From positions 38,229 to 102,228 of the IMG/VR virus record IMGVR_UViG_3300002835_000070: a DNA stretch of 64,000 nucleotides; one strand, written 5' to 3'. A program made the translations under genes and the position numbers. Positions 7,468 through 61,207 of this stretch are shown here, in pieces; within the stretch, counting starts at the first letter, position 1; every line of letters starts with the position of its first letter. The notes beneath the pieces are model-generated. The model ran no database searches and was not told where the DNA came from. It saw only the letters and a program-made list of their open reading frames with translations. The DNA comes from a virus.

Positions 7468-8034
7468 ATGGAAACAATTAATGGATTATTAAGAGCGTTG
7501 GATAACAAAGTACCCGCTTCAATGGCTAAAAGAATAGACGGTTTGCAAAAACTGAATGTGAAATTAGAAACCGCAAGAAGCGAACACGATGCTAACCCGA
7601 CAGAGGCTTCTCAAGATGCGTTAGACGAGATTATAGAATTTATCAAAGACACCCAAGAGGATGTTCAAGAAGATTTAGAAACTCTTGTAGAGCAAAAAAG
7701 AAGTGCTAATTTAAAAGCACAGGGAGAAGAGAAAAAAAGAAGAGAACAAGAGGCTTTAGCGAAAAGAGGAGAACAAGAGGCGTTAGCCAAAAGAAGAAAA
7801 CAACAAGAGGAATTAGCAAATAGAAGAGCAAGTGAAAAAGCCCAAAAAGATGCTGAAGAATTGAGAGAAAAAGAAGATTTAGAGAAAAAAGAATCGGAAG
7901 AACAAGAATTAAAAACAGATGACGAAACTAAAACTGAAAAAAAATCAGGAATTGGTTGGGGAAGTTTGCTTTTAGGCGGTATTCTACTTGTAGCAACAGG
8001 TGGGGCAATAAAGTATTTCGGAAATAAAAAATAA
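7468..8034 (+). CDS. Coiled-coil protein with C-terminal membrane anchor
   Basis: E/K/R-rich helices; GIGWGSLLLGGILLVATGGAIKYF tail. Confidence 0.8.
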   Translation: METINGLLRALDNKVPASMAKRIDGLQKLNVKLETARSEHDANPTEASQDALDEIIEFIKDTQEDVQEDLETLVEQKRSANLKAQGEEKKRREQEALAKRGEQEALAKRRKQQEELANRRASEKAQKDAEELREKEDLEKKESEEQELKTDDETKTEKKSGIGWGSLLLGGILLVATGGAIKYFGNKK

Positions 8035-8201
8035 TGAGCAAAGCGCAAAAAATTTTATTAGTAGTAGGCATTTTAGGTGTTGCTTTCGGAGGCTTTGTCT
8101 TGGCGAAGTATCTTACTCGTAATGTTAGAAAAATTCGAGGTGGAACAGTCACTTTTCAAAAGTTTGACACACCGCCAATAGAAGAACCTTTATCTGAATA
8201 A
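8034..8201 (+). CDS. 55-aa N-anchored membrane protein (not in ORF track)
   Basis: MSKAQKILLVVGILGVAFGGFVLAKYL...; start overlaps the upstream stop (TAATG). Confidence 0.7.
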   Translation: MSKAQKILLVVGILGVAFGGFVLAKYLTRNVRKIRGGTVTFQKFDTPPIEEPLSE

Positions 8202-8203
8202 TT

Positions 8204-8902
8204 ATGGGAAAGTACACGACAGTTGCGATTAAAGTGCCTGATATTAATAGAAGTTTTGCACAATCAAATTATAAATACTCTAACCCCGATGTTATAAGAG
8301 TTAACAATTTACTTATAGATGAAATCAATAAGTCATTTGGAAGCTATGTTACAAAGTGGGGAATTGAATTTGAAATTGATGATTCAATAATTATAGGTTT
8401 TATTGCTACCGAAAGTGGCGGTATTAATTCTCCTCCGAATAAATATGATGCGACAGGTCTTATGCAGATGACTCCAAACACAGTTTGGGAAATTTTGGCA
8501 AAATGGCAAGTTATGGTCAATTCCCCGCTATCTACTAAAGCAAAATCTTTTTTCAATAAAGCGATTCCGTCAAGTAAAAATTTCAACGCTAATGTACTTC
8601 CGAGTTCGGCAGTAAAAAGCGAAATACGCAAAGCATTACAAAATAATCCTGAATTCAATATAGCAATTGGTACTGCTAATTTAAGATGGCTTTTAGAAGC
8701 ATTTAAAGAGGGCAACGTTGCGAGTATGAATAAAGTTATGGTTTCCTACAATGCGGGTTACTATGCTATGAGAAATAAGGTAAAAGGTGCTTTAACAACT
8801 CAACAATTAATCAATAATAAATCTATTCCTTTGGAAAGCAGAGGTTATTTATTAAAAATGTTAGGCGTAAACGGTTTTTTAGACCTATGGTTTAAAAAGT
8901 AA
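8204..8902 (+). CDS. Lytic transglycosylase (SLT/lysozyme-like)
   Basis: IATESGG (catalytic Glu), ATGLMQ and SYNAG motifs. Confidence 0.85.
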   Translation: MGKYTTVAIKVPDINRSFAQSNYKYSNPDVIRVNNLLIDEINKSFGSYVTKWGIEFEIDDSIIIGFIATESGGINSPPNKYDATGLMQMTPNTVWEILAKWQVMVNSPLSTKAKSFFNKAIPSSKNFNANVLPSSAVKSEIRKALQNNPEFNIAIGTANLRWLLEAFKEGNVASMNKVMVSYNAGYYAMRNKVKGALTTQQLINNKSIPLESRGYLLKMLGVNGFLDLWFKK

Positions 8903-8986
8903 TTATAAACAAAAACAAGAAACAAAACAACAACCTAATTAAGTAATGATAAATTTAAAAAATATAAACAATTAAATATTAAAATT

Positions 8987-9241
8987 ATGAAAAAAGGTTA
9001 TTTAGTAGGTGGTTTAGCGATTGTAGGTGCAATAGCATTATTTATGTATTTAAAACCAAAAAACAAAGCAAATTCAGAGGGTTTTTACGGGGCAAATGGT
9101 AAATTAACTACCAAAGGAGGTTCGACTTCAAAAGTTCAATTACAATGTAAAAGACCTAATGGAAGTTATTACTTACAACCATCAGGAGCAACTGCTTGTG
9201 TGTATGGTAGTGACACACCAATTCGTTACGTTGAAAATTAA
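8987..9241 (+). CDS. N-anchored small membrane protein, 'GGLA..GA.AL..LKPK..NSEGF' family
   Basis: Close paralogue of 25638; TM, then EGFYGANG, then a two-Cys domain. Confidence 0.8.
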   Translation: MKKGYLVGGLAIVGAIALFMYLKPKNKANSEGFYGANGKLTTKGGSTSKVQLQCKRPNGSYYLQPSGATACVYGSDTPIRYVEN

Positions 9242-9252
9242 AAACAAAAAAA

Positions 9253-9680: not shown

Positions 9681-10301
9681 ATGGCTCTAATATACGAAAA
9701 TAAAGTTCCTGCTTCATACAGGATACCTTTTGTTAACAAGGTAAACGAAATTGCACCAAGAATAGGGGTTGACCCTAATTGGTTAATGGCAATTATGTAC
9801 TTTGAGAGCGCAGGTGGTTTTAGCCCGTCTATTACAAATTCATTAGGGTATGTAGGCTTAATTCAATTTGGAGCATCGGCAAGAAAAACTTTAGGTGTTA
9901 CAAAAGAGCAACTAAAGGCAATGACCGCAGTAGAGCAATTAGATTACGTTGAAAAATATTTTAATTTATATAAGGGTAAATACAAAACTTATATAGACAC
10001 ATATTTTGCAGTATTTTTTCCTTTAGCAATTGGAAAGCCCGATGATTGGGTAATTCAAGGCGGAGGTCTTACGGCAAAACAAATTTACGATGCGAACCCC
10101 GCTTTCCGAAATGTAAAAGACGGAAAATTGAGAGTTTGGGAAGTTAAAAAAACAATGTTAGAAAAACTGCCGAGCCAATGGCTACAAGACGGAAGTTTTA
10201 GTTTGGCAGTTAAAGCATACAAGAATTATATTGCAGTTGGTATATTATCAATATTGGCAGGATTAACATTATATTATTATGGTAGAAGCAGTACAAAATA
10301 G
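9681..10301 (+). CDS. Lysozyme-like/transglycosylase with C-terminal membrane anchor
   Basis: WLMAIMYFES...GLIQF...EQLDYV; hydrophobic C-terminus. Confidence 0.75.
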   Translation: MALIYENKVPASYRIPFVNKVNEIAPRIGVDPNWLMAIMYFESAGGFSPSITNSLGYVGLIQFGASARKTLGVTKEQLKAMTAVEQLDYVEKYFNLYKGKYKTYIDTYFAVFFPLAIGKPDDWVIQGGGLTAKQIYDANPAFRNVKDGKLRVWEVKKTMLEKLPSQWLQDGSFSLAVKAYKNYIAVGILSILAGLTLYYYGRSSTK

Positions 10302-14667: not shown

Positions 14668-15315
14668 ATGGAATTTAACGATTTAACATACGGAAATCCA
14701 ACTGTTGAGGATTTAGTTTACATTCAGGGAAATGGATTGACAGACGACCTTTTTGAAACATTAAAGTCCAAGTTGTCATATCCAAAAAATGATTCTGAAT
14801 TAGTTAAGGACGAACTTAACGAAATTGTAGATGCTTTGGCAACAATGGCTCAACCTGAAAATCAAAACTATTTAAAAAGATACAAGTCTTACGATAGGAA
14901 TTTAATTCAGTCGCTTTCAGCAATATTTAAACAAAGAAATATTGATGTTGAACAATTGTGTAAAGACGTAGTTATGGATATGCAAAATTTGATTTATAAA
15001 TTAAAATTTTACTATCAAAGACCACGACCAAAGCAAATTGCGCAATATTACAAGTTGAAATTATTTCCATACAAAAGTTTTTCAGCACACACGCCATCGT
15101 TCCCTTGCGGACATTGCGTACAAGCAATTGTAATGCTTAACGTAATAGGAAATAAAAACCCTACTGAATATCCGTTCTGTAAAGAACTAATTGAAGATAT
15201 TGCATACAGTAGAGTATATTTAGGACATCATTTTCCAAGCGATAATGACGGAGCAAGAGAAATTGGTAAAGCGATTTTAAAACACCCTGAATTTGCGAAA
15301 AAATACGGCATATAA
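14668..15315 (+). CDS. PAP2/haloperoxidase-superfamily phosphatase
   Basis: KFYYQRPRP, PSFPCGH and SRVYLGHHFPSD are the three PAP2 motifs. Confidence 0.9.
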   Translation: MEFNDLTYGNPTVEDLVYIQGNGLTDDLFETLKSKLSYPKNDSELVKDELNEIVDALATMAQPENQNYLKRYKSYDRNLIQSLSAIFKQRNIDVEQLCKDVVMDMQNLIYKLKFYYQRPRPKQIAQYYKLKLFPYKSFSAHTPSFPCGHCVQAIVMLNVIGNKNPTEYPFCKELIEDIAYSRVYLGHHFPSDNDGAREIGKAILKHPEFAKKYGI

Positions 15316-16187: not shown

Positions 16188-17330
16188 ATGAGCAACCAAG
16201 AAAAACAAATAGAAGAAGTTTATGCAGAAGTAGTGCAAACAATTGATGATGATTTCTCTCCGTTAGATGCCCCCGTAAAACAGAGGGCATATACACAACA
16301 CAAATTAGACGACAGTCAAGTAATGCAGGATTTGGAAGAACCAAGTTTTGAAAGACCAAGTTTTGCAGACCTTGATGGAAGTGCCGAAGAGGAATCATCA
16401 GAACCTGAAAGACCTTTTAACCCGTCTTATAATGAATTAGACGGTAAAGAAAAGACAATGGGGGCTGAAATGATGGCTGAAATGACTTTGGACATTTACG
16501 AAAAGGGTTGTTTCTATATGGGTAAAATACCCGAAATCAGTGAGCAAAAATTAGATAAGTTAATTGCAGAGGGGGAAATAGACCCGTCAATCCAACTTCA
16601 AACAGAAGCGGGTTCAATGCCTATTAAAGATTTTGCAGTAGAGTTCAACGACAGTATTAAAGATGCTTTTGCGGTAACTGACGAATTTAAAGAAAAAGTA
16701 AAACCACCATTAATCCGTGTTTTCAAAAAACGTGGAATTGGAATGACCGATGAGCAATTATTGGCTTACTACTTTATTTCAGATTTAGGAGCAAAAGGCG
16801 CACAAGCGTTTATGTTGCGTAAAACGGCTAATAGCATTTTGGATTCTTTGAGAGAAAACACTTTGGCAATTAGAGAAAATCAATTAAGAACAGAAAGACC
16901 AACTCCTCCACCTGCGCCACAACAATCGTATCAGGAAAGAACTGATTGGGATACTTCGTCAAAACCGAGAAACGTAAATACTACCGATTCCGAACCAATA
17001 GATAGAGAGGACTTTGACTATTCCGAAAACATAGCAGAAGTTATACAAAAACCTGTTAAGAAAGAAAAACTTGAAAAACCTGTAAGAAGAAAGCCTCAAA
17101 CTAATTTAGAAGAGCAATTAGCTTATTTTGAGCCTGAAGAACAAGAAGTTTTTAGTAACTTAAAAGATAAAGACGGTTTTACAGATAGATTTCAAGACGT
17201 AGCAGGTATGCCTCAATATGGCGACCCTGTAATGATGTCAGAATTAGAGAAGTTGAGTAAGAAAGACCCAACTAAACCTGTTAGAAAAGTAAGAACAACT
17301 GCTTTAAGAAAACCAAGAAATAAAAAATAA
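16188..17330 (+). CDS. Acidic protein with disordered C-half; unknown function, upstream of the ATPase
   Basis: 380-aa ORF; composition only. Confidence 0.75.
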   Translation: MSNQEKQIEEVYAEVVQTIDDDFSPLDAPVKQRAYTQHKLDDSQVMQDLEEPSFERPSFADLDGSAEEESSEPERPFNPSYNELDGKEKTMGAEMMAEMTLDIYEKGCFYMGKIPEISEQKLDKLIAEGEIDPSIQLQTEAGSMPIKDFAVEFNDSIKDAFAVTDEFKEKVKPPLIRVFKKRGIGMTDEQLLAYYFISDLGAKGAQAFMLRKTANSILDSLRENTLAIRENQLRTERPTPPPAPQQSYQERTDWDTSSKPRNVNTTDSEPIDREDFDYSENIAEVIQKPVKKEKLEKPVRRKPQTNLEEQLAYFEPEEQEVFSNLKDKDGFTDRFQDVAGMPQYGDPVMMSELEKLSKKDPTKPVRKVRTTALRKPRNKK

Positions 17331-17449: not shown

Positions 17450-17450
17450 T

Positions 17451-18275
17451 ATGGAAGAAAGAGAACCGAAATTATTAGTTGCAGTTGGACGTAAAGGGTG
17501 CGGTAAAACTTTTTCAACAAGAAAAATGCTTACAAGTTATGTTCAAGGCAATATTTCAAAAGGTATTGCCCCAAGAAGAGTTTTAATATTTGATGTAAAT
17601 GATGAGTTTGAGGACATAAAAGCATTGGCTTTAAAAGATGTGGCTTTATTTTCTATGCACCCAAAAATAGAGATAAGAAGAATTAGACCATTCAACAAGG
17701 ACGGAAGACCTATGGGTATTAATGAAATGCAAGAAACATTATTTAAAATAGTTAATAATTTTAGAGGAGGAATGCTTTTGTTAGAGGATTTAAACGGTTA
17801 CGTTGGGGATTATATCCCACAGGATTTAATAGGTAAAATAGTAAGAGCAAGACACGCAGATTTGGACATAATTACGCATTTTCAATCAATAGGAAGAATA
17901 TCGCCTAAAATTTGGCAGAACGTCAACGCTATTCGTTTTCACAAAAATACAGATTCAGTTTTAAAACATTCCAAGAAATTTGATAATTTTTCAGAAATGT
18001 TTTTATTAGTGGAGGCTTATGTAAATTCCGAGTATCATTTAGGAAATGAAAGAATACAAGTTTGGGTTGATACAGAAAACGAAAAAATTAAAATACCAAA
18101 AGAAAATATAGCTAAATTTGAAAAAATTGTAGAATTGTACTTAATGGAAAACCATAAAAGAATACTTTCCCCTTTATTAAATAAAAATATTTTCTTTAAA
18201 AATAATAAACCATTAACAATGCAAGAAGTTTTAAAAATAAAAAAAGCAGAAATGTTAAAATATTATTTAGATTAA
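17451..18275 (+). CDS. A32/P9-like (FtsK-HerA superfamily) genome-packaging ATPase
   Basis: N-terminal Walker A GRKGCGKT, VLIFD, Walker B MLLLED, then RARHADLDIITHFQ (RH plus Q sensor); 274 aa with no nuclease domain. Confidence 0.75.
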   Translation: MEEREPKLLVAVGRKGCGKTFSTRKMLTSYVQGNISKGIAPRRVLIFDVNDEFEDIKALALKDVALFSMHPKIEIRRIRPFNKDGRPMGINEMQETLFKIVNNFRGGMLLLEDLNGYVGDYIPQDLIGKIVRARHADLDIITHFQSIGRISPKIWQNVNAIRFHKNTDSVLKHSKKFDNFSEMFLLVEAYVNSEYHLGNERIQVWVDTENEKIKIPKENIAKFEKIVELYLMENHKRILSPLLNKNIFFKNNKPLTMQEVLKIKKAEMLKYYLD

Positions 18276-19134: not shown

Positions 19135-19377
19135 ATGAAAAAAAGTAGATTTAGTAAGTTATGTCTAAAAGACCTTTCACGGGGTGTGATAATGACAGTA
19201 GGTACAACTTTTGTAGGGTTGTGTAGCACAAGTGTAGTTTCGGGAATATTTCCTGCGGTTGCAGATTTTATTAATATGGGTAAGGTAGGTTTGCTTTCAG
19301 GAGCAGTTTATTTAGTTAAAAACTTCCTTACAAACTCAAAAGGCGAATTTTTAAAACAAGAAGAAGATGTCGTATAG
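19135..19377 (+). CDS. Putative holin (2 TM)
   Basis: 80 aa, two hydrophobic segments, overlaps the endolysin start. Confidence 0.6.
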   Translation: MKKSRFSKLCLKDLSRGVIMTVGTTFVGLCSTSVVSGIFPAVADFINMGKVGLLSGAVYLVKNFLTNSKGEFLKQEEDVV

Positions 19378-19894
19378 TTATTTAAGCAAAGAGGCTTCGC
19401 CTCAAATTTTAGTTCAAGCAAAATCCCTTTTAGGAACTAAAGAAATTGTAGGCGTTATTCATAATAAAACTATTATGAGTTGGGCTAAAGGTTTAGGTCT
19501 TGAAAAAATATATACCTCTGACGAAATCGCTTGGTGCGGTTTATTTATGTCAGAAGTTTGTAAAAAAGCGGGGGTAGAAACCAACTTAACCCCTAAAGAT
19601 TCATTGTGGGCTTTAAATTGGAGTAAATTTGGAACAAAGCAATCAGTAGCGATGCTTGGGGATATTCTTACTTTTAAAAGAAACGGAGGCGGACACGTTG
19701 GTATTTATGTTGGGGAAGACGATACTTGCTATCATATTCTTGGGGGAAACCAATCTAATATGGTTTGCGTTACTCGAATTGAAAAATCAAGAGTTAACAG
19801 TATTAGACGTACAAGTTGGAAGTCAAAACAACCAAGTAATGTAAGGGTAATAAAACTCGAAAGTAACGGTATAATTTCTAAAGACGAGAGTTAA
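19367..19894 (+). CDS. TIGR02594-like NlpC/P60/CHAP peptidoglycan hydrolase (endolysin)
   Basis: DEIAWCGLF, GDI..F.R.GGGHVG, LGGNQSN. Confidence 0.85.
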   Translation: MSYSYLSKEASPQILVQAKSLLGTKEIVGVIHNKTIMSWAKGLGLEKIYTSDEIAWCGLFMSEVCKKAGVETNLTPKDSLWALNWSKFGTKQSVAMLGDILTFKRNGGGHVGIYVGEDDTCYHILGGNQSNMVCVTRIEKSRVNSIRRTSWKSKQPSNVRVIKLESNGIISKDES

Positions 19895-20619: not shown

Positions 20620-20649
20620 AAAGCGCACCAATACGGTGCGTTTTTTTTT
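20620..20649 (+). terminator. Intrinsic terminator after the lysis cassette
   Basis: GCGCACC-AATAC-GGTGCGT followed by a T run. Confidence 0.85.
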
Positions 20650-46344: not shown

Positions 46345-49300
46345 ATGGCATATCCAAATGGGTCAATACCCGTAACAAGTAACATAGGCACTACGGCAAG
46401 TAGTGACACATTTCCAACGCACATAGATAATCTTGGGGCAGGTGGTCTTATGACTATGCTTACGGTTGCCAATATGAACTCGATACCAACTGCTCGAAGA
46501 AAGTTTGGTATGCAGGTTTCGGTAACAAGCGACACAACTCCCGCAAACAATAAAGTTTACATTTTAGCAAACGTTGCAATGGGTGGAACAGATAATTCTG
46601 TTTCAAATAATGCGAATTGGATTGAATACTCTTCTTTCAATGGTGCAAGTCCTTTTGAATATAATGCTAATGCAACAGGCATTCAGCCAATATTAGGCAG
46701 TAATAATGCGAGTGGTTGTTTAGCTACTATTGGTGGTGGTTGTTATAATATTGCAAGTGGAACACATTCTTTTATTGGTTCAGGCTTTTGTAACAAGGCA
46801 ACTTTAGATAAATCTATTGTTGTTGGGGGATATAAAAATTGTGCATCAGGTTGTTATTCTTTTATTGGGGGTGGTTATTATAATTCTTCAAGTGGTAAAT
46901 ACGCTACAATTGGTGGGGGTTCATATAATGAAACTGCTTATAGTTATACAACTGTAAGTGGTGGAAAATATAACAGTTCAATTAGTAAGGGTGCTACCGT
47001 TAGTGGCGGTATATTAAATAATTCAAACAATCAATATGCTTTTGTAGGTGGAGGTAAAAAAAATCTTTCTTCTGGTCAATTTGCTACTATTGGCGGTGGT
47101 TGTTGTAATAAAGCGTGTGTTAATGGTTCAACAGTTGGTGGTGGAATAAAAAACACATCTTGCAATAATTTTTCAACAGTTAGTGGTGGTTGTTGTAATA
47201 CTGCGAATGGTTGTTACTCTTTTATAGGTGGTGGTGCTTGTAATCTTGCATCAAGTACTGAAAAAGGATTTCAGGGATTTTCAACAATTGGTGGTGGTAG
47301 GAGTAATACCGCTTGTGGGAATTATTCTTTTATTGGCGGTGGTAAATTAAATTGTGCTTTAGGCGAATATTCAATAATAGTTGGTGGTTTTAATAACTCA
47401 ACTACTTGCCCTCTTTCAACAATCGGTGGTGGTCGTTGCAATATTACGTCTGCTATAAATTCAACTATTAGTGGTGGTTGTAGTAATAGTACTTCGGGTT
47501 TTTATTCAACAATTGGCGGTGGTTGTACTAACATTGCTTCTGCTTCAAAGGCAACAGTTAGTGGCGGTGGTAATAATACTGCATCTGCTTGTTATTCATT
47601 TGTAGGTGGCGGTGCTTACAATACTGCTATTTCTACGAATTCAACTATTGGTGGCGGTGGTAGTAATAATGCGTGTGGGGAATTTTCATCAATTGGCGGT
47701 GGTGTTGAAAACGCTACATTTGCACCAAATGCTACAATTGGTGGTGGTAGGAATAATCAAGCCTGTGGTAATGCTTCAACTATTTCAGGTGGTTGGTGTA
47801 ATAGTACTTGTTATAGTTTTTCAACAGTAGGTGGTGGTAAACAGAATAGTGCTTCTTATGATTATGCAACAGTAGGAGGCGGTTATTGTAATACTGCTTC
47901 AAATTATTATTCAACAATTGGCGGAGGAATTAGTAATACTTCAAGTGATTATAATTCAACAGTTGGTGGTGGTATTTGTAATACCGCTTCGGGTTCTGAT
48001 TCATTTATTGGTGGTGGTAGAACAAATACCGCTTCGGGTTGTTCCTCGATAATTGGTGGTGGTTTACAAAATACTGCTTCTAATAAATACACAACAGTTA
48101 GTGGTGGTCAATGTAATACTGTTTCTTCAATTAATGGCATAATTGGGGGAGGTTGTTATAATAAAATAAACGCATCTCAAAACTATAATAATAGTTATCC
48201 TTTTATTGGAGATGTAATTAATGGCGGTAGTCGTAATGAAATTAAACAAAATACTTATTGTGCTTTTTCTTCTACTGGTGGAAATGTAATTGGAGGGGGT
48301 TATAATAATATAGTATGTGCTTATAGAGAGTCAAATACTATTGGTGGTGGTAAAATTAATACAACTCGTGGGGATTTTTCAACAATAAGCGGAGGAAATA
48401 GCAATAAGGCTTATTGTAGTGGCTCAACAATAGGTGGCGGTTCTTTTAATAAAGCGTATAATTATCACGCTACTGTTTCTGGAGGTGTTGCAAATACTGC
48501 TTGTGGTTGTTATTCAACTATTGGTGGTGGTAGATGTAATATAATTACTTCTGGTCGTTATACATTTATTGGAGGAGGTCAAAAAAATTCGCTAACCGCT
48601 ATTTATTCAACAATTGTAGGGGGTTATTATAATACTGCTTCTGGTTATTCTTCTTTTGTAGGTGGCGGTAGTAAAAATACATCAAGTAATAATTATACAA
48701 CAGTAGGTGGCGGTAGATATAACGTTTCAAGTAGTTATTATGCTACTATTGGAGGTGGTTGTTGCAATACTGCTTCGGGCAATAGTTCTTTTATAGGTGG
48801 GGGTATATTTAATGTTAGTTGTGGTGCTGTTTCTTTTGTAGGTGGCGGACAACGTAATGTAAATTATGGTCTTTTTTCAACAATTTCTGGGGGTTATTAT
48901 AACTGTATTCAAGGAGGATGTAATTCTACAATTGGTGGCGGTAGTAAAAATTGCATAAAGGGTAAGAGTGGAGTAATTGGCGGAGGTTATAATAATTATA
49001 TTACTGATAGAAGTGATTATTCCTCTATTATTGGTGGCAGAAATAATAATACCAACGATTATAGTGATGTTCATATAATAGGTTGTAATATTACTGCAAA
49101 TCAAAATAACACTACATTTACAAATTGCATTTCTGCTTGTAACTTAACCGCAGGTTGTTTTGTATCAGTAGGTGCAAACGGTGTATTAATAGATAATGCA
49201 GGTATTCCTTATGCGGGTTGCTTAATAATTCAAGGTTTAGGTACGGGTAGTACAATGCGTTGTGGTTTGTCAAATATTGCAACAGGCAATTATGCAACTC

Positions 49301-50700
49301 TTTTTGGCACAGGTAATGTTGCAAGTGGAGAGAAATCAACAGTAGGTGGTGGAGAATGTAATACTGCTTCGGACTATCATTCAACAATTGGTGGTGGATT
49401 TTGTAATACCGCTTCGGGCTTTTTGTCAACAATTGGGGGCGGAAAATGTAATACTGCTTATGCTTGTTATTCATTTGTAGGGGGCGGATATTGTAACGTT
49501 ACAAGTGGATATAGAGGCAATACAATTGGAGGGGGTCGTGAAAATATTTCTACTTCGTATAATTCAACAGTTGGTGGCGGTTTTCAAAATACTGCTTCTG
49601 CGTATTATTCAACAATTAGCGGTGGTAAAAATAATTTCTCAAGTGGTTGTTGTTCATTTGTTGGTGGTGGTTATAGTAATGTTGCTTCTGCCTTTCATTC
49701 AACAATAGGGGGTGGTTATGAAAATATTAGTTCTGGGCAGTATGCAACAATTGGGGGTGGTGCTAATAATGTTGCAAACAATCTTGTTTCTTTCGTAGGA
49801 GGTGGTACGGGTAATCTTGCTTACGGACAAAAATCAACAATTGGTGGAGGAGAGACAAATGTTGCTTGTGGCGATTATTCAAGTGTAATTGGTGGAAGTG
49901 GAAATGTTGCCTGTGGTCTTTATTCAACAGTTGGAGGTGGACACGGAAATTGTGCAATTGGTCGAGGGTCAACAGTTAGTGGTGGTTCTTCTTATTCAGC
50001 TTATAATAATAAAGCGTATGGAAGTTTCTCAACAATAGGTGGTGGATATTATAATTGGATTAATGGTATTGATGCTTGTGGTTATGCTTCGACAATAAGT
50101 GGTGGTAATTGCAATACTATAAATAATAGAGAAGGAACAATTGGGGGTGGTAGGCACAATACAGTAAGTGCTAATTTATCAACAGTTAGTGGTGGTCAAT
50201 ATAATACTGCTTCTGGTGGTTGGTCAACAGTAAGTGGTGGTAAGTGTAATAGTGCAAGTGGGTGTTATTCATTTATTGGTGGTGGTTATAGCAATACTGC
50301 TACTGTGCAATACTCAACAGTTGGTGGAGGACTTAGTAATATTGCTTGTGGTTCTTATGGAGTAATTAGTGGTGGTTTAGCAAATATTAATGGTGGTAGT
50401 TTTTCAATGATTGGTGGCGGAAATGCTAATAAAATTGTACAAAATAACAGTGCTTCGTTTATTGGCGGTGGTACTTGCAATAATGTACAATCAGTAGCTT
50501 GTTTTTCAGCTATTTTAGGTGGTAATAATAATAATGCACAATCCGCATATTCAATGATTGTAGGAACTAATATCACTACGAATAGAGTTTGCACTACATT
50601 TGTAAATAACTTATCTATAATGAATATTCCAACAAGTAGTGCTGGTTTACCGAGTGGCTCTGTTTGGAGAAGAGAAAGTTCATTGTGTATAGTGCCTTAA
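46345..50700 (+). CDS. Fibre/spike protein 3 (1451 aa)
   Basis: Same N-domain; longest repeat array. Confidence 0.75.
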   Translation: MAYPNGSIPVTSNIGTTASSDTFPTHIDNLGAGGLMTMLTVANMNSIPTARRKFGMQVSVTSDTTPANNKVYILANVAMGGTDNSVSNNANWIEYSSFNGASPFEYNANATGIQPILGSNNASGCLATIGGGCYNIASGTHSFIGSGFCNKATLDKSIVVGGYKNCASGCYSFIGGGYYNSSSGKYATIGGGSYNETAYSYTTVSGGKYNSSISKGATVSGGILNNSNNQYAFVGGGKKNLSSGQFATIGGGCCNKACVNGSTVGGGIKNTSCNNFSTVSGGCCNTANGCYSFIGGGACNLASSTEKGFQGFSTIGGGRSNTACGNYSFIGGGKLNCALGEYSIIVGGFNNSTTCPLSTIGGGRCNITSAINSTISGGCSNSTSGFYSTIGGGCTNIASASKATVSGGGNNTASACYSFVGGGAYNTAISTNSTIGGGGSNNACGEFSSIGGGVENATFAPNATIGGGRNNQACGNASTISGGWCNSTCYSFSTVGGGKQNSASYDYATVGGGYCNTASNYYSTIGGGISNTSSDYNSTVGGGICNTASGSDSFIGGGRTNTASGCSSIIGGGLQNTASNKYTTVSGGQCNTVSSINGIIGGGCYNKINASQNYNNSYPFIGDVINGGSRNEIKQNTYCAFSSTGGNVIGGGYNNIVCAYRESNTIGGGKINTTRGDFSTISGGNSNKAYCSGSTIGGGSFNKAYNYHATVSGGVANTACGCYSTIGGGRCNIITSGRYTFIGGGQKNSLTAIYSTIVGGYYNTASGYSSFVGGGSKNTSSNNYTTVGGGRYNVSSSYYATIGGGCCNTASGNSSFIGGGIFNVSCGAVSFVGGGQRNVNYGLFSTISGGYYNCIQGGCNSTIGGGSKNCIKGKSGVIGGGYNNYITDRSDYSSIIGGRNNNTNDYSDVHIIGCNITANQNNTTFTNCISACNLTAGCFVSVGANGVLIDNAGIPYAGCLIIQGLGTGSTMRCGLSNIATGNYATLFGTGNVASGEKSTVGGGECNTASDYHSTIGGGFCNTASGFLSTIGGGKCNTAYACYSFVGGGYCNVTSGYRGNTIGGGRENISTSYNSTVGGGFQNTASAYYSTISGGKNNFSSGCCSFVGGGYSNVASAFHSTIGGGYENISSGQYATIGGGANNVANNLVSFVGGGTGNLAYGQKSTIGGGETNVACGDYSSVIGGSGNVACGLYSTVGGGHGNCAIGRGSTVSGGSSYSAYNNKAYGSFSTIGGGYYNWINGIDACGYASTISGGNCNTINNREGTIGGGRHNTVSANLSTVSGGQYNTASGGWSTVSGGKCNSASGCYSFIGGGYSNTATVQYSTVGGGLSNIACGSYGVISGGLANINGGSFSMIGGGNANKIVQNNSASFIGGGTCNNVQSVACFSAILGGNNNNAQSAYSMIVGTNITTNRVCTTFVNNLSIMNIPTSSAGLPSGSVWRRESSLCIVP

Positions 50701-50995: not shown

Positions 50996-52606
50996 ATGAT
51001 AAAATTAGTAATAGTAGATGGAAGTTTACAAATAAGCATTAATGGTTCAATTATATTAGTAGCACCGAAAAATTCGTGTGCTATTGATGTATTATCTTTA
51101 TACGATGCGATACCTTTAATTGTAATTTACAATAAGTATTTAGGTAATTTCACGAGTATTTTTAGTCAACCTTTGTCTGAATGTACGGACGGTACAGGAA
51201 CTCCTTTTGACGTAAACACATTTATTGATTTTGCGGAAGCAAATCTTGGGTTTGATACATCAGGTGGTGGTGGCGGTGGTTGTAGTCCTTTCAAATATAA
51301 CACTAATGGAACAGGTATAGAACCTTGCTTGGGTAGTAACTATGCGAGTGGGGATTTATCCACTATTGGCGGTGGTTCTACAAATACTGCGAGTGGTATT
51401 CACTCAACAATTGGTGGTGGGGATTGCATAACCGCTGATGGCGACCATTCTTTTGTAGGCGGTGGTTTATGTAATACGGCAACAGGTGGATGTTCGACAA
51501 TTGGTGGTGGAATTAGTAATACCGCTTCGGGTAATAATTCAACCGTTAGTGGTGGGAAATGTAACACTTCTTCTTGTGATTTAGCAAATATCAGTGGTGG
51601 TATTTCAAACACTTCCTCTGGTTACGCTTCAGTAATTGGTGGCGGTACAGGAAATGCTTCTTCTACTGTTAATTCAACAGTAGGTGGTGGAGGTAGTAAT
51701 TCGGCTTCAGGTAGTGCTTCAACAGTTAGTGGTGGTTGTGCGAATTTCGCTACTGCTTATAAAACAACTGTTGGTGGTGGTGGTAGTAACTATGCAACTT
51801 CTGACTTGGCTACCATTGGTGGTGGAAGCCAAAATAATGCGGTTGGTTATTGGGCGACAATTTCAGGCGGTAAAGGACAATGGGCTTGTAATAGTGCTTT
51901 TGTAGGAGGTGGTAGATACAATTGTGCTAATGGTTGTAATTCTGTTGTAGTTGGTGGTGGTGGTACATATCCATCGGAGGGTAATATTGCAAGTGGAAAT
52001 ACATCAACAATTAGTGGCGGTAGAGCCAATGCTTCCATAGGAGGCTTTTCAACAATTGGCGGTGGTATTTTTAATAGTGCTTCTGCTAAATATTCAACAG
52101 TTGCAGGGGGTTATAATAATACTGCTTCTGGTTATTCTTCTTTTGTAGGTGGCGGTAATCTTAATACTGCTTCGGGTTTTTATTCAATAATTGGCAGTGG
52201 TAGGAGAAATACTTCTTCTGGTGATTTTTCTACAATCGGAGGAGGTTGTTACAATACTGCTTCTGGCAATAAGTCTTTTATAGGCGGGGGTTATAAAAAT
52301 TGTGTTTCTAATTATGAATATTCATCAATTGTTGGTGGCAAGAGAAATAATACTTATAGTGCTTATTCTTTTATAGGTAATGGTTATCAAAATAAAGTTA
52401 ACGCTGATTTTTCAGCTATATTAGGTGGTAAAAACAATGTTGCTAATTACGCTTGTTCGATGATTGTAGGAGATAATATTACTACAAATAGAATTTGTAC
52501 TACATTTGTAAACAACTTATCTATAATGAATATTCCAACAACTAATCTTGGATTACCGAGTAATTCTGTTTATAAAATAGGTAATCAATTATTTATAGTG
52601 CCTTAA
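50996..52606 (+). CDS. Fibre/spike protein 4 with a different N-domain
   Basis: Same repeats and the CTTFVNNLSIMNIPT C-terminus. Confidence 0.75.
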   Translation: MIKLVIVDGSLQISINGSIILVAPKNSCAIDVLSLYDAIPLIVIYNKYLGNFTSIFSQPLSECTDGTGTPFDVNTFIDFAEANLGFDTSGGGGGGCSPFKYNTNGTGIEPCLGSNYASGDLSTIGGGSTNTASGIHSTIGGGDCITADGDHSFVGGGLCNTATGGCSTIGGGISNTASGNNSTVSGGKCNTSSCDLANISGGISNTSSGYASVIGGGTGNASSTVNSTVGGGGSNSASGSASTVSGGCANFATAYKTTVGGGGSNYATSDLATIGGGSQNNAVGYWATISGGKGQWACNSAFVGGGRYNCANGCNSVVVGGGGTYPSEGNIASGNTSTISGGRANASIGGFSTIGGGIFNSASAKYSTVAGGYNNTASGYSSFVGGGNLNTASGFYSIIGSGRRNTSSGDFSTIGGGCYNTASGNKSFIGGGYKNCVSNYEYSSIVGGKRNNTYSAYSFIGNGYQNKVNADFSAILGGKNNVANYACSMIVGDNITTNRICTTFVNNLSIMNIPTTNLGLPSNSVYKIGNQLFIVP

Positions 52607-53132: not shown

Positions 53133-53951
53133 ATGAAAAAGATTTTTTTCAATTCCTCGCTCCCACGTTCGGGGTCAACTTTGATTTCTAATTTGATTGC
53201 TCAAAACCCTGAATTTTATGCAACGCCTACTTCGGGTCTTTCAGATTTAGTTTTGAGTGCTAAAAACTCTTACGCACATTCCCAAGCAATTTTGTCGCAA
53301 GACAAGGAAGCAATGGAAAAAGCATTTTTAGGATTTTGCCGTGCAGGTATGCAAGGCTTTTTCAATAACCTTACCCCAAAAGAATTTATCGTTGATAAAA
53401 GCAGAGATTGGGGTATTCACTACAACTTATTGAATTTACTATATCCTGAACCAAAGATAATTTGTATGGTTAGAGATGTTCGAGCCGTATATGCTTCTAT
53501 GGAAAAGAACTTTAGGAAAAATCCGCATAAAGAAAGTCATATCCAAAATGCACCACAATTAATTGGAACTACATTAGACAAGAGAATTAATATATGGGCT
53601 GACGGAGTACCTGTTGGTATTGCGTTAGACCGTTTGAAAGATGTTATCCAACAAGGTTTAGATAAAAAAATATTATTTATTCGCTATGAAGACTTAATGG
53701 CGAACCCTGAAAACGAAATGAAGCGTTTGTATGAGTATTTAGGACAACCTTACTACGACAAACACGATTTTGAAAACATTACCCAACATACTCACGAAAA
53801 CGATGCTATTCACGGTATCTATGGCGACCATCAGTTAAGACCTAAATTCGAGAGATTACCTGACGATTTTTACGATGTTTTAGGTTACGAACTTTGCCAA
53901 TCCATAAAAAACACTTATGCTTGGTTCTACAAATATTTTGCGTACCTATAA
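53133..53951 (+). CDS. Sulfotransferase
   Basis: SLPRSGSTL (5'-PSB loop), DKSR, MVRDVRAVYAS (3'-PB), IRYEDL..NP. Confidence 0.9.
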   Translation: MKKIFFNSSLPRSGSTLISNLIAQNPEFYATPTSGLSDLVLSAKNSYAHSQAILSQDKEAMEKAFLGFCRAGMQGFFNNLTPKEFIVDKSRDWGIHYNLLNLLYPEPKIICMVRDVRAVYASMEKNFRKNPHKESHIQNAPQLIGTTLDKRINIWADGVPVGIALDRLKDVIQQGLDKKILFIRYEDLMANPENEMKRLYEYLGQPYYDKHDFENITQHTHENDAIHGIYGDHQLRPKFERLPDDFYDVLGYELCQSIKNTYAWFYKYFAYL

Positions 53952-54870: not shown

Positions 54871-54877
54871 TAAGAAA

Positions 54878-56193: not shown

Positions 56194-56194
56194 A

Positions 56195-56539: not shown

Positions 56540-56542
56540 ATT

Positions 56543-59055: not shown

Positions 59056-59057
59056 TT

Positions 59058-59522
59058 ATGGCAGGAATCTACACACCTACAACTACGTTTTACCCAAATG
59101 GAGTATATCAAATATCGAGTAACGATGGTACTCCTTATTTTCAAATACAAAATTCAATGGGTAGCTTTCTGTATGGTGTAGATGAGATTTATCTACAAGC
59201 AAATTCAGCAGAACAATTATTGCAAGGTTTGAGTTTTAGAAGTTATGACGTTAATGGGGATGTAAGTAATTTTATAAACACAACAACCGTTGACCCTTAT
59301 CAATATCAAAATTCTATATTTATAAAACCAATCCGAAACGATATTGTTCTTGACGGACGTACAAGCATAAATTTCAATTTATTACCAAGTGAAACTATCA
59401 ATTTTGTGTTTTATGTAACCGAACATTTTAACGGAATGTTCTTGCCTAAAACCAAATTTTTAGACGATTATTTTTTCAAACAACAATACGACTTTTTTAA
59501 TGGCTTTGTCGAACAAGTTTAA
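59058..59522 (+). CDS. Paralogue of the candidate capsid protein (minor capsid/vertex protein)
   Basis: Collinear match to 21005, including D.NG and (V/I)DPYQ.Q...DG.T.I. Confidence 0.7.
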   Translation: MAGIYTPTTTFYPNGVYQISSNDGTPYFQIQNSMGSFLYGVDEIYLQANSAEQLLQGLSFRSYDVNGDVSNFINTTTVDPYQYQNSIFIKPIRNDIVLDGRTSINFNLLPSETINFVFYVTEHFNGMFLPKTKFLDDYFFKQQYDFFNGFVEQV

Positions 59523-59979
59523 TACAGTAGGTCTTAACAAATTAAAAATTCAAAATAGAAACCACATTGTTTCAAAATTAAAGACGGGAGATACGATAAC
59601 AACAAAATCTAAACTCATTCCTCTTTATGTACATCACGGAATAATTGAGCGAAATGGGGATGAAATCTTTATTGTTCATTTACATCCTGATAAGGTAAAT
59701 TCAAGTGGCGGAAATTTGATTAAAGAACCTTTATCTAAATGGTTAATAGGCGGTAGAGAAATTGTTTCTGTTCAGCAAACTGATTTAGACTCCGCAACTC
59801 TCGACCAACTTTATAAAGATTTGAAAGCAGAAAAATATGACCACATCAATTATAATTGTGAGCATTTTGTAAATTTCGCCAAAGGGGATTATTTTGTTAG
59901 CGGTCAAGTAGTAAAATATACAGGAATACTAATGATAGGTGTTTTTGTGTATTATTTAATAAGAAATAAAAAAATATAG
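59500..59979 (+). CDS. LRAT/H-NC (permuted NlpC/P60) acyltransferase/phospholipase or peptidase with C-terminal TM
   Basis: GD....VHHGI...VH...Y....NCEHFVN. Confidence 0.8.
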   Translation: MALSNKFNTVGLNKLKIQNRNHIVSKLKTGDTITTKSKLIPLYVHHGIIERNGDEIFIVHLHPDKVNSSGGNLIKEPLSKWLIGGREIVSVQQTDLDSATLDQLYKDLKAEKYDHINYNCEHFVNFAKGDYFVSGQVVKYTGILMIGVFVYYLIRNKKI

Positions 59980-59980
59980 T

Positions 59981-61207
59981 ATGGGCTTACCAATTAACGA
60001 TACTTTAAATGTTAGAGTTATAAATAACACTAATTTGCCACAAAGGGTAAATATATTGGGCGGTAGCCAAGACCCTTTAAGTGTGCCTCCAAATAAAATC
60101 TATGAATGGGATTTATCGGGAGAAACATTTTTCGGCAGTGTAAGTGCTAAAATTGTTATTTCAAACACATCAAGCCCTACACCTGTAACTTATACTGTTC
60201 AAGTAACACAATACAATATACAAGGAGTTGTTTCTGCGTTAAACACGCTAAAAAAAGGTTTTTTCCAATTAAGCGGAACTATAATTTACGTTTCTAATGA
60301 CTATTACATATATGGTGCTTTATCGGTGTCAGGAACTACAATTTTAGGAACTACAAGTAATAATCCTGTTGGGATTGTATATGACAGTATTGGCAATGTA
60401 TATGTTGCAAATGGTTCGGATGCGTCTGTTACTAAAATTACGCCAAGTGGGGTTTCAAGCGTTTTTTGTACATTTCCATTATTAGATTATGCTCAATCTA
60501 TCACGATTGATAGTAGTGACAACCTATATGTTGCGACTCTTACAACTTGGAACTTATTTCAAATTGACCCATTAGGTAATATTATTAATATATTTAGTTC
60601 TGCCCCACAACCTGCTCAAAATGCAATTACAATTGACAATTTAGGAAATATTTATAATGTCGGAAATACAAACAATGTTTATAAAAACGACCCTTTATTT
60701 GGAACGACTGCTTACGGGAATTTACCAATAGGTCTTGGTGGCTTTACATCTTTAGTTGTCGATTCTGTTGGAAATGTTTTTGTTGCTTGTCCTAATGCCA
60801 ATCAAGTTGCTAAAGTAACACCATCAGGAGTTACAACTGTTTTTACAATTTTTAATTTACCCCCAACTCAACCTTATGGACTTGCAATAGATAGTTCAGA
60901 TAATATTTATGTTTCAAATCCTACATTAGAAAGTGTTTATAAAGTAACGCCATTGGGTATAAGAACGCTTTATGGAAGTACAGGGGCAGGAAATAACCCT
61001 AACTACATAGCTATTGATAGTTTGGAAAATATTTACACAGTAAATACGAATGGAACTATAAGTAAAATATTAGTAGGTGGCGGAACTACATTATTAGCAG
61101 ATTTAAGTGTGTACGGTGGTACGCCATTCGCAATAACAGTAGATAGTTCGTTTAATGTTTATGTAACAGATACTACAAACAATGTCGTTTACCTGATAGT
61201 ACAATAA
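59981..61207 (+). CDS. NHL-like beta-propeller protein (candidate receptor-binding spike)
   Basis: About seven P.GI..DS.GNVYV repeats after an N-terminal beta domain. Confidence 0.8.
   Translation: MGLPINDTLNVRVINNTNLPQRVNILGGSQDPLSVPPNKIYEWDLSGETFFGSVSAKIVISNTSSPTPVTYTVQVTQYNIQGVVSALNTLKKGFFQLSGTIIYVSNDYYIYGALSVSGTTILGTTSNNPVGIVYDSIGNVYVANGSDASVTKITPSGVSSVFCTFPLLDYAQSITIDSSDNLYVATLTTWNLFQIDPLGNIINIFSSAPQPAQNAITIDNLGNIYNVGNTNNVYKNDPLFGTTAYGNLPIGLGGFTSLVVDSVGNVFVACPNANQVAKVTPSGVTTVFTIFNLPPTQPYGLAIDSSDNIYVSNPTLESVYKVTPLGIRTLYGSTGAGNNPNYIAIDSLENIYTVNTNGTISKILVGGGTTLLADLSVYGGTPFAITVDSSFNVYVTDTTNNVVYLIVQ

What the first reader, a model, noticed from the sequence alone, without database searches (positions are those of the whole stretch)
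7468..61207. Candidate undescribed large tailless, membrane-containing virus of Bacteroidota
Seen: about 54 kb of co-oriented late genes with no recognisable terminase, portal, HK97 capsid or tail gene. Instead there is an A32-like ATPase, a small beta-rich highly expressed protein and its paralogue, about 60 TM proteins, lipid enzymes and fibres. Known: A32/P9 ATPases with jelly-roll capsids and internal membranes define the PRD1/PM2/Sphaerolipoviridae/NCLDV lineage, whose characterised bacterial members have genomes of only tens of kb. Inference: a much larger bacterial member of that architecture, since this window alone is 64 kb.
Basis: partly seen in the sequence, partly recalled or inferred. 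Interest (0 to 1): 0.92.

Follow-up and report, generated by a model that had tools for sequence, protein, structure and literature searches.

The report
Large tailless-type lake virus genome
The window holds the virion-building half of a freshwater bacterial virus of at least 100 kb that has a packaging ATPase, jelly-roll coat-like proteins and many small membrane proteins like tailless membrane-containing viruses, has no detectable tailed-phage genes, and would be several times larger than any described bacterial virus of that type.

Summary
Window 7468-61207 is one co-oriented block of 92 ORFs that is almost blank to Pfam and PHROGs. No terminase, portal, HK97 capsid or tail family is found in the 102-kb record. 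None is found among the larger ORFs of the extra ~47 kb carried by a 132-kb collinear relative.

42-55 of the 92 ORFs carry a hydrophobic helix, against 2-8 of 51 upstream. PAP2 and LRAT-like lipid enzymes, two SLT lysins and four repeat fibres are present.

The best reading, at about 0.6, is a new and very large tailless membrane-containing bacterial virus that is common in lakes. The capsid role, the membrane and the Bacteroidota host remain inferred, and the record is a fragment. This scan had already noted a similar ~80-kb virus on other DNA (e1-5359216).

The parts
7468..61207 (+). Co-oriented block of 92 ORFs (median 142 aa), read as the virion-morphogenesis and late region
   Evidence: collinear with relative G001:C9
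8204..8902 (+). SLT lytic transglycosylase (peptidoglycan-cleaving, so a bacterial host)
   Evidence: Pfam SLT E 5e-12; PHROGs endolysin, weak
9681..10301 (+). Second SLT-like protein
   Evidence: Pfam SLT E 2.6e-4; phrog_21656 E 5e-19
14668..15315 (+). PAP2-family lipid phosphatase, a core gene of the module
   Evidence: Pfam PAP2 E 1.6e-12; present in 36 of 44 related loci
16188..17330 (+). Conserved 380-aa protein with an acidic, low-complexity body and a basic tail, always just upstream of the ATPase; role unknown (scaffold or DNA-associated are guesses)
   Evidence: 38 of 44 loci; sequence; no family hit
17451..18275 (+). FtsK/HerA-superfamily ATPase of the A32/B204 genome-packaging type
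19367..19894 (+). HNH/NUMOD4 homing endonuclease inserted between the ATPase and the coat gene
   Evidence: present in only 3 loci
20620..20644 (+). Intrinsic terminator ahead of the coat-gene unit; a second hairpin plus T-run lies at about 21742-21778
20819..20950 (+). 43-aa membrane peptide that opens the two-gene unit
21005..21700 (+). Candidate major coat protein: N-terminal helix, disordered leader ending in a conserved A-x-G, then a jelly-roll-type beta-sandwich (residues 50-215)
   Evidence: AF2 pLDDT 87.3; jelly-roll-class hits; all 44 loci at median 78% identity; 1451 clusters at 90% and 555 at 50% identity; self-association
21796..22233 (+). Conserved protein with a C-terminal membrane anchor, always directly downstream of the coat gene
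   Evidence: 40 of 44 loci
23484..23699 (+). Core small membrane protein
   Evidence: 34 loci
26618..26947 (+). Core small membrane protein
   Evidence: 34 loci
26949..27734 (+). Conserved 261-aa protein with an HExxH motif at residue 188; candidate zincin (maturation?) protease
   Evidence: 33 loci at 65% identity; motif; no Pfam or PHROGs hit
39538..42774 (+). Fibre 1 (1078 aa): ~14-aa Gly/Ser/Asn/Thr-rich repeats behind a shared ~110-aa N-terminal domain
   Evidence: GC and AT-skew shift
43768..46326 (+). Fibre 2 (852 aa), paralogue of fibre 1
46345..50700 (+). Fibre 3 (1451 aa), paralogue
50996..52606 (+). Fibre-repeat protein (536 aa) with N-terminal hydrophobic segments and the C-terminus shared with fibres 2 and 3
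53133..53951 (+). Sulfotransferase
   Evidence: Pfam Sulfotransfer_3 E 3.8e-21
59058..59522 (+). Second conserved jelly-roll-family protein (154 aa); candidate second coat or vertex protein
   Evidence: E 1e-10 to 21005; orthologue at 71% identity in the 132-kb relative
59500..59979 (+). LRAT/PLAAT-like acyltransferase or phospholipase with the NCEHF motif and a C-terminal membrane anchor
   Evidence: PF04970 over cut-off; sequence
59981..61207 (+). Beta-propeller (NHL/SBBP repeat) protein, the last gene of the block
   Evidence: Pfam SBBP E 1.2e-13

Best explanation
The window is the morphogenesis and late half of a lytic double-stranded DNA virus of a freshwater bacterium, probably Bacteroidota. 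The record holds at least 102 kb, and the full genome is probably about 130 kb or more.

Its virion is most likely a tailless icosahedral shell with an internal lipid membrane, of the PRD1 / PM2 / P23-77 / STIV type. In this reading:
- The 231-aa jelly-roll protein (21005) forms the shell. The 154-aa paralogue (59058) probably serves as a second coat or vertex protein.
- The dozens of small membrane proteins, together with the PAP2 and LRAT-like enzymes, populate and remodel the viral membrane.
- The 274-aa B204/A32-type ATPase (17451) pumps the genome into the preformed particle at a vertex.
- The four repeat fibres bind the host.
- The two SLT transglycosylases open the cell wall on entry or exit.

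Shown: the ATPase fold, the jelly-roll-type fold, the paralogy, the conservation and synteny, the hydrophobic-protein excess, and the absence of detectable tailed-phage hallmarks.

Inferred: that 21005 is the capsid protein, that a membrane is present, that the virion has no tail, and the host phylum.
For: ATPase:
- The AF2 model has pLDDT 88.6.
- The next matches are DndH-C 16.1, HerA 15.5, VirB4 15.1 and FtsK 10.8.

Coat candidate 21005:
- pLDDT is 87.3, with a beta-sandwich over residues 50-215.
- Its hits are dominated by jelly-roll capsid proteins and other jelly-rolls.
- It is the most conserved gene of the module (median 78% identity in 44 loci) and directly follows the ATPase in compact relatives L044-L046.
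- The family has 1451 clusters at 90% identity and 555 at 50%.
- C-ending codon use is at z 2.6 and terminators flank the gene.

Self-association of 21005:
- Three copies of residues 44-231 score 0.79, with the best of 3 controls at 0.00.
- The mark was reached by 20 of 30 proteins solved as pairs of one chain and by 1 of 23 solved as single chains.
- The runs agree in at least 0% of contacts, and the partner's pLDDT is at least 71.
- In the best run one copy uses face A only, one uses face B only and one uses both. That is an open head-to-tail row that does not close at three copies, as expected for a larger ring.

Other support:
- A second jelly-roll gene (59058) is conserved in the 132-kb relative.
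- 42 of 92 ORFs carry a strong hydrophobic helix, against 2 of 51 upstream.
- PAP2 is a core module gene, present in 36 of 44 loci. An LRAT-like enzyme is also present.
- No TerL, portal, HK97 or tail family is found.
- None is found in the 8 ORFs of 274 aa or more (plus two of about 245 aa) that I scanned in the relative's extra 47 kb.
- The host is bacterial: SLT x2 here, with a zeta toxin, an Acb2/Tad1 domain, RecT and TnpB elsewhere in the genome.
Against: - Three further jelly-roll paralogues lie in the accessory left arm and are absent from the relative. The domain is therefore also used for something other than the shell.
- The record is a fragment. Contigs run past the window's end and a relative carries 47 kb more, and no closed genome was examined. 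Hallmark genes could lie in unsampled DNA.
- Two ORFs of 347 and 272 aa in the relative's flanks were not scanned.
- No minor capsid, penton or size-determining protein was recognised.
- The presence of lipid is untested.
- The third complex run scored 0.01.
Confidence: 0.6

Rival explanations
1. It is a tailed phage (Caudoviricetes) whose HK97-fold capsid, portal, terminase and tail proteins are too diverged to detect, or lie in the part of the genome missing from this record. In that case the small ATPase and the jelly-roll proteins would be accessory, for example decoration or fibre-knob proteins.
For: The record is incomplete. Several ORFs of 350-590 aa have no family or fold assignment: C1:28973 (586 aa), C1:32149 (529 aa), C1:34032 (356 aa) and window 27754 (403 aa). 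Jelly-roll domains occur in cement, nozzle and fibre proteins of tailed phages (rows). The genome size of 100-130 kb and the long fibres are ordinary for tailed phages.
Against: No PHROGs or Pfam hit to any head, neck or tail family in 145 ORFs of this record or in the large ORFs of the relative's extra 47 kb. No TerL-sized ATPase-nuclease is present. The only morphogenesis-linked ATPase is B204-like and syntenic with the jelly-roll gene across 40 or more loci. Nearly half of the late proteins are membrane proteins, which is unlike tailed phages.
Confidence: 0.15
2. It is a virus of another, possibly new, architecture: enveloped, pleomorphic or otherwise non-icosahedral. The membrane proteins would form an envelope, the jelly-roll family would be a spike or lectin rather than the shell, and the ATPase would act in assembly or DNA delivery.
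For: The membrane-protein load is far heavier than in PRD1 or PM2. The jelly-roll fold has no specific capsid relative and resembles CBM and TNF/C1q lectin-like domains equally well. Jelly-roll paralogues are expanded in the accessory region. No double jelly-roll or penton protein was recognised.
Against: Adjacency of a B204/A32-type ATPase to a jelly-roll gene is the signature of the icosahedral membrane-containing lineage. 21005 is the best-conserved gene and shows expression-type codon bias. The predicted head-to-tail open association fits a ring capsomer.
Confidence: 0.17
3. It is not a virus but a large plasmid or conjugative-type element. The FtsK/HerA/VirB4-like ATPase, SLT lysins, small membrane proteins and adhesin-like fibres would form a secretion or transfer apparatus, and the polyvalent proteins would be transferred effectors.
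Against: The ATPase is a single 274-aa domain that aligns over nearly the whole B204 chain and scores 2-3 Z units above HerA and VirB4. No relaxase, coupling-protein or VirB-family Pfam hit is found. Nothing in this reading explains the hugely abundant, highly conserved jelly-roll protein. The record is classed as viral, with lytic-type HNH-rich gene content and no integration in 300 Chitinophagaceae genomes.
Confidence: 0.04
4. It is a virus of a freshwater eukaryote, a small relative of giant viruses, rather than of a bacterium.
For: The combination of a jelly-roll protein with an A32-like ATPase and a genome of 100 kb or more is typical of Nucleocytoviricota. The habitat is lake water.
Against: The gene content is bacterial-phage in character. 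It includes SLT peptidoglycan lysins, NlpC/P60, a zeta toxin, an Acb2/Tad1 anti-defence domain, RecT, a DnaD-like loader, TnpB and HNH/NUMOD4 endonucleases. No NCLDV capsid, polymerase B or transcription genes are found. Genes are dense and operon-like, with intrinsic terminators.
Confidence: 0.03

Closest known systems
Turriviridae (STIV, STIV2) of Sulfolobales
   Different: Turriviruses have archaeal hyperthermophile hosts and genomes of about 17 kb (my own knowledge), with a double jelly-roll coat. Here the coat candidate is a single roll with no detectable sequence or specific structural kinship, and the genome is at least 6 times larger.
Halopanivirales (Sphaerolipoviridae, Simuloviridae, and Matshushitaviridae such as P23-77)
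   Same: Those are tailless membrane-containing virions built from two single-jelly-roll coat proteins plus an A32-type ATPase (abstracts of PMC12643093 and PMC12642351). Here there are two conserved single-roll paralogues (231 and 154 aa), an ATPase and many membrane proteins.
   Different: Those genomes are 16-31 kb, in haloarchaea or Thermus. No sequence match was found and none of their coat proteins appeared in the fold lists. Here the two rolls are clear sequence paralogues and lie 38 kb apart.
Tectiviridae (PRD1, PR772) and Corticoviridae (PM2)
   Different: Their genomes are 10-15 kb (my own knowledge), with a double jelly-roll coat and, in PRD1, protein-primed polymerase B and inverted terminal repeats. 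None of these is found here.
Finnlakeviridae (FLiP, phiCjT23) of Flavobacterium
   Different: Their genomes are about 9 kb of single-stranded DNA with no packaging ATPase of this type. The similarity is at generic fold level only.
Nucleocytoviricota (giant viruses)
   Same: Genomes of 100 kb or more, an A32 ATPase, a jelly-roll coat with paralogue expansion, an internal membrane with many viral membrane proteins, and fibres.
   Different: Giant viruses have eukaryotic hosts, a double jelly-roll coat and their own polymerase and transcription genes. Here the gene content is bacterial-phage in character.

Membership tests
Varidnaviria-type (PRD1-adenovirus lineage) viruses | FtsK/HerA-superfamily genome-packaging ATPase of the A32/P9/B204 clade | tested here: met
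Varidnaviria-type (PRD1-adenovirus lineage) viruses | Major capsid protein with a vertical jelly-roll, single or double | tested here: inconclusive
Varidnaviria-type (PRD1-adenovirus lineage) viruses | ATPase and coat genes linked in one morphogenesis module | tested here: met
   The ATPase is found within 10 kb of the coat gene in 40 of 44 related loci. The two genes are directly adjacent in L044, L045 and L046.
Varidnaviria-type (PRD1-adenovirus lineage) viruses | Internal lipid membrane in the virion | not testable with these tools
   Only indirect evidence: 42-55 of 92 late ORFs carry hydrophobic helices, and PAP2 and LRAT-like enzymes are present.
Halopanivirales (two single-jelly-roll coat proteins) | Two distinct single-jelly-roll major coat proteins forming mixed capsomers | tested here: inconclusive
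   Two conserved single-roll paralogues exist, 21005 and 59058. 21005 is predicted to self-associate head to tail. Hetero-assembly was not tested, and no similarity to known Halopanivirales coats was seen.
Bamfordvirae (double jelly-roll coat) | [quoted passage not shown] | tested here: not met
   The only tandem two-roll protein (C1:17225-18418, 397 aa) lies in the accessory left arm and has no orthologue in the 132-kb relative. It is therefore not a core coat gene.
Caudoviricetes (tailed phages) | HK97-fold capsid, portal and large terminase | tested here: not met
   There is no hit in Pfam or PHROGs scans of all ORFs. Six-frame searches with PF03237, PF05065 and PF04860 are also empty at E<=1. 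The relative's flanks give nothing either. Extreme divergence, or a location in unsampled DNA, cannot be excluded.
Conjugative type IV secretion elements | VirB4-class ATPase (about 800 aa), coupling protein and relaxase | tested here: not met
   The ATPase is a 274-aa single domain and is closer to B204 than to VirB4 or TrwB. No relaxase, T4CP or VirB Pfam family is found among all ORFs.

The most novel reading that the evidence does not exclude
A previously undescribed, globally common lineage (family to class rank) of tailless, internal-membrane bacterial viruses with genomes of 100-130 kb or more. Their shell would be built from single jelly-roll proteins with no detectable relative, and they would be 5-10 times larger than any known bacterial virus of this architecture. 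That would partly account for the many non-tailed particles seen in natural waters.
Probability: 0.5. Interest if true: 0.88.

Novelty: new variant of a known kind. Interest (0 to 1): 0.8.

Why it matters
Described bacterial and archaeal viruses that combine a jelly-roll shell, an internal membrane and an A32-type ATPase have genomes of about 10-31 kb. Only eukaryotic giant viruses scale this architecture to 100 kb and more. A 100-130-kb bacterial example would show that large size in this lineage is not tied to eukaryotic hosts. It would give a prokaryotic model for building very large membrane-lined capsids, and it would add an abundant, so far invisible group to freshwater viromes. The coat-like protein alone forms 1451 clusters at 90% identity, and near-identical DNA is held by lake and freshwater runs from more than 20 studies. 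It also matters practically: standard tailed-phage markers miss this group entirely.

Tried and rejected
Coat candidate, searches that gave nothing specific:
- Sequence and profile searches of 21005 and the ATPase against PDB sequences gave nothing useful. The ATPase profile found only P-loop-level hits to ClpB and HerA.
- The ESM Atlas gave no usable hit and holds no model for 21005 or for the 397-aa two-roll protein.
- Foldseek against BFVD gave only weak, mixed hits: collagen-repeat proteins, picorna-like capsids and minor tail proteins.
- No Halopanivirales, PRD1 P3 or PM2 P2 coat protein appeared in the fold lists. This is not evidence of difference.
- Profile-profile tests of 40 module gene families against the jelly-roll alignment found no further hidden jelly-roll genes.

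Tail-like names that did not hold up:
- The PHROGs 'baseplate hub / tail lysozyme / short tail fibre / tail fibre adhesin' names are rejected as tail evidence. The two I located, phrog_1259 and phrog_12032, fall on HNH homing endonucleases.
- Marginal tape-measure hits of the 172-aa membrane protein at 34072 (E about 1e-3) are treated as noise.

Genome ends and expression:
- No direct or inverted terminal repeats.
- No tRNA genes.
- No RNA holder is listed among public runs, so expression could not be examined.

Host:
- The full Bacteroidota -33/-7 promoter pattern is not enriched.
- The coat gene is not found in 300 Chitinophagaceae genomes apart from the MAG contig.
- The TnpB fragment has at most 45% identity there.
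- The 424-aa glycosyltransferase-region protein has at most 30% identity in 400 Bacteroidota genomes.
- Other fragments are binned in Planktophila, Bathyarchaeia and Chlamydiales MAGs, so binning is unreliable.

An alignment-based scan of genome contigs failed for lack of a conserved stretch.

Full report
**What the record is.** The window is bases 38229-102228 of a single 102,228-bp virus record (IMG/VR, classed 'linear'; CheckV estimate 100%). GC is about 32%, there are no tRNA genes, and there are no direct or inverted terminal repeats.

The record is not a whole genome:
- It begins inside a TnpB fragment.
- Assembled contigs from two lake metagenome runs continue 433 and 147 nt past window position 64000 (records 8 and 16).
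- A 132,486-bp contig binned in a Sediminibacterium MAG (G001:C9) is collinear with the whole record. 119 of 151 proteins match, mapping to C9 positions 116845 down to 32057.
- That contig carries about 32 kb and 15.6 kb more of small, same-GC, virus-like ORFs beyond the two ends.
- The protein searches also report relatives on contigs of 145-158 kb.

**Checking the observation.** From 7468 to 61207 there are 92 ORFs (median 142 aa), all on the + strand except two small inserted genes at 18290-19229 and a doubtful 46-aa ORF.

I scanned all 145 ORFs of the record with Pfam and PHROGs. I also scanned each ORF of about 130 aa or more in the finding's block and each large upstream ORF individually. 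No terminase, portal, HK97-type capsid, tail tube, sheath, tape-measure or baseplate family appears. Six-frame searches with Terminase_6N, Phage_capsid and Phage_portal give nothing at E<=1, while the same searches ring in control genomes.

The names 'baseplate hub and tail lysozyme', 'baseplate hub', 'short tail fiber' and 'tail fiber adhesin' looked like counter-evidence. The two I located, phrog_1259 and phrog_12032, map to the HNH/NUMOD4 homing endonucleases at 19367-19894 and 57525-58007. Those PHROGs evidently contain endonuclease inserts.

In the relative's extra 47 kb I scanned 8 of the 10 ORFs of 272 aa or more, plus two of about 245 aa. They are a DNA methyltransferase, a polymerase exonuclease subunit, an HNH endonuclease and unknowns. 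None is a head or tail protein. ORFs of 347 and 272 aa were left unscanned.

**The ATPase.** The 274-aa product of 17451-18275 has Walker A and B motifs and only sub-threshold AAA_22/DUF87 hits by sequence. Its family has 535 clusters, some of which carry PF01935.

|---|---|---|
| B204 | 18.1 | rmsd 2.5 A, 185 of its 204 residues |
| DndH-C | 16.1 | |
| HerA | 15.5 | |
| VirB4 | 15.1 | |
| TrwB | 12.4 | |
| FtsK | 10.8 | |

This is therefore a minimal FtsK/HerA-type ATPase of the kind that packages DNA in tailless membrane-containing viruses. B204 is the solved representative of the A32-like group (established knowledge).

**The coat candidate.** The 231-aa product of 21005-21700 matches no Pfam, PHROGs or PDB sequence. 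It belongs to a very large family: 1451 clusters at 90% identity and 555 representatives at 50%.

The model, built on 91 diverse sequences, has pLDDT 87.3, with values above 95 across residues 50-200. It shows:
- an N-terminal helix (residues 2-17);
- a disordered leader (19-42) that ends at a nearly invariant Ala40-x-Gly;
- a sandwich of about a dozen strands.

**Why I still read 21005 as the coat protein.**
- Among 44 related loci it is the best-conserved gene of the module (median 78% identity, against 57% for the ATPase).
- The order '380-aa acidic protein, ATPase, jelly-roll gene, C-terminally anchored protein' is kept throughout.
- In compact relatives (L044-L046) the jelly-roll gene directly follows the ATPase. 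In this window an HNH endonuclease and two - strand genes have been inserted between them.
- The gene sits with a 43-aa membrane peptide between two intrinsic terminators. It has the second-highest C-ending codon use in the genome, at z 2.6.
- Three copies of residues 44-231 are predicted to bind one another. The score is 0.79 and the best of 3 controls is 0.00. The mark was reached by 20 of 30 proteins solved as pairs of one chain and by 1 of 23 solved as single chains. The runs agree in at least 0% of contacts, the partner's pLDDT is at least 71, and one of the three runs scored 0.01.
- In the best run, face A (residues 53-55, 98-114) of one copy meets face B (75-80, 141-147, 176-177) of the next, and the two end copies each keep one face free. 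The row therefore does not close at three copies. That is what a larger ring such as a capsomer would give, and it is not what a closed fibre-knob trimer would give. This last step is my inference from the contact list.

**Paralogues.** 21005 is related to 59058-59522 (154 aa; E 1e-10). It is also related to both halves of an upstream 397-aa ORF (E 1e-33 and 2e-32) and to two more upstream ORFs of 174 and 154 aa. That makes six domains in five genes.

Only 21005 and 59058 have orthologues in the 132-kb relative (89% and 71% identity). The conserved set is thus two single-roll proteins, which recalls the two-coat-protein Halopanivirales or a coat-plus-vertex pair. The tandem two-roll protein is a lineage-specific accessory gene and not a conserved double jelly-roll capsid protein. 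Profile-profile tests found no further hidden rolls in 40 module families.

**Membrane and lipid signals.**
- With a strict hydropathy rule (19-residue mean >= 1.6), 42 of the 92 ORFs have a hydrophobic helix, against 2 of 51 ORFs in the upstream part of the same genome. At 1.4 the counts are 55 and 8.
- 27 of these proteins have the helix at the N-terminus and 21 at the C-terminus.
- Several are core genes (21796, 23484, 26618; 34-40 of 44 loci).
- A PAP2 lipid phosphatase (14668) is a core module gene, present in 36 loci.
- An LRAT/PLAAT-like enzyme with the NCEHF motif and a C-terminal anchor is at 59500.
- A cytidylyltransferase part lies in 54878.

None of this proves that the virion contains lipid.

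**Other parts.**
- Two SLT transglycosylases open the block at 8204 and 9681.
- A conserved 261-aa protein at 26949 carries HExxH and may be a protease.
- Four paralogous proteins (1078, 852, 1451 and 536 aa, at 39538-52606) consist of about 14-residue Gly/Ser/Asn/Thr repeats. Three share a ~110-aa N-terminal domain, and three (43768, 46345 and 50996) share a common C-terminus. They are very probably fibres, and they have a distinct base composition.
- A sulfotransferase, kinase and cytidylyltransferase cluster follows.
- An NHL/SBBP beta-propeller closes the block.

**Host and habitat.** Near-identical DNA is held in lake and freshwater metagenome runs from more than 20 studies dated 2016-2024. 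The host is a bacterium: the genome encodes peptidoglycan lysins, a zeta toxin, an Acb2/Tad1 anti-defence domain, RecT, a DnaD-like loader and TnpB.

Bacteroidota is plausible but weakly supported.
- For: the 132-kb relative is binned with Sediminibacterium and a fragment with a 'Bacteroidetes' MAG. The Bacteroidota -7 promoter motif TAnnTTTG occurs upstream of 13 genes against 6.4 +/- 2.4 in shuffles, including the starts of the block (7468) and of the coat unit (20819).
- Against: other fragments are binned with Planktophila, Bathyarchaeia and Chlamydiales, and the fuller -33/-7 pattern is not enriched.
- Uninformative: searches of Chitinophagaceae and Bacteroidota genomes.

**Known or new.** Neither the coat candidate nor the ATPase has any tblastn match in 50,697 GenBank phage records. 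Four literature searches found no description of such a virus. The membrane-containing tailless prokaryotic viruses they returned have genomes of 16-30 kb or less (abstracts of PMC12643093, PMC12642351 and PMC11630473). That is not independent evidence.

**Verdict.** The rivals are:
- a tailed phage with undetectable or unsampled hallmarks (0.15);
- another membrane-rich architecture in which the jelly-roll is not the shell (0.17);
- a non-viral element (0.04);
- a eukaryotic virus (0.03).

Noticed in passing
L001:1-405 (G000:C1:1-405) and window 62841-64000: The IMG/VR record rated 100% complete is a fragment. It starts inside a TnpB (Cas12f1-like TNB) remnant, and metagenome contigs run 433 and 147 nt beyond its right end. 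A collinear relative is 132 kb long.
   Followed up: yes
window 19367-19894 and 57525-58007: Two HNH/NUMOD4 homing endonucleases hit PHROGs named 'baseplate hub subunit and tail lysozyme' and 'short tail fiber protein' at E 1e-29 to 1e-33. These PHROGs evidently contain endonuclease inserts and would mislead automatic annotation.
   Followed up: yes
L001:6650-7174, L001:14648-15112, L001:17225-18418: Three extra paralogues of the jelly-roll coat-like domain lie in the accessory left arm, one of them a tandem two-domain protein of 397 aa. None has an orthologue in the 132-kb relative, so their role is open (decoy, receptor-binding or exclusion are guesses).
   Followed up: partly
window 21005-21700, residues 19-43: The disordered leader of the coat candidate ends in a nearly invariant Ala40-x-Gly just before the beta-sandwich, across 91 diverse relatives. 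It is placed like a maturation cleavage site.
   Followed up: partly
window 26949-27734: A conserved 261-aa core protein (33 of 44 loci) has an HExxH motif at residue 188 and no Pfam or PHROGs match. It is a candidate zincin protease of the module.
   Followed up: partly
window 8987-9384 and 24794-25889: A family of five small N-terminally anchored membrane proteins (43-146 aa) shares up to 84% identical leader segments and is spread over two places in the block.
   Followed up: no
window 39538-52606: The four fibre genes have higher GC (0.35-0.39) and reversed AT skew compared with the rest of the genome. Three of them share a near-identical ~110-aa N-terminal domain, which suggests cassette-like exchange of receptor-binding parts on a common anchor.
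   Followed up: partly
window 52703-57418: A cluster holds a sulfotransferase, an APS-kinase-like P-loop kinase, an HNH-cytidylyltransferase fusion and a glycosyltransferase-like protein. It may be a sulfation or sugar-activation pathway carried by the virus.
   Followed up: no
window 18290-18883 (- strand): A 197-aa gene on the opposite strand is inserted right after the ATPase. It is a paralogue (38% identity) of G000:C1:18484-19050 and is absent from all 44 related loci.
   Followed up: no
whole genome, 80 nt upstream of ORFs: The Bacteroidota -7 promoter motif TAnnTTTG lies upstream of 13 ORFs against 6.4 +/- 2.4 in shuffles. These include the first gene of the block (7468) and the coat-gene unit (20819).
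   Followed up: partly
L002 (G000:C1:19419-38228) and window 3-7298: Upstream of the block lie giant polyvalent proteins carrying ART-PolyVal, LPD11, DUF2958 and zeta-toxin domains. A MoxR-like AAA_5 ATPase there is flanked by unknown 586-aa and 529-aa proteins.
   Followed up: no
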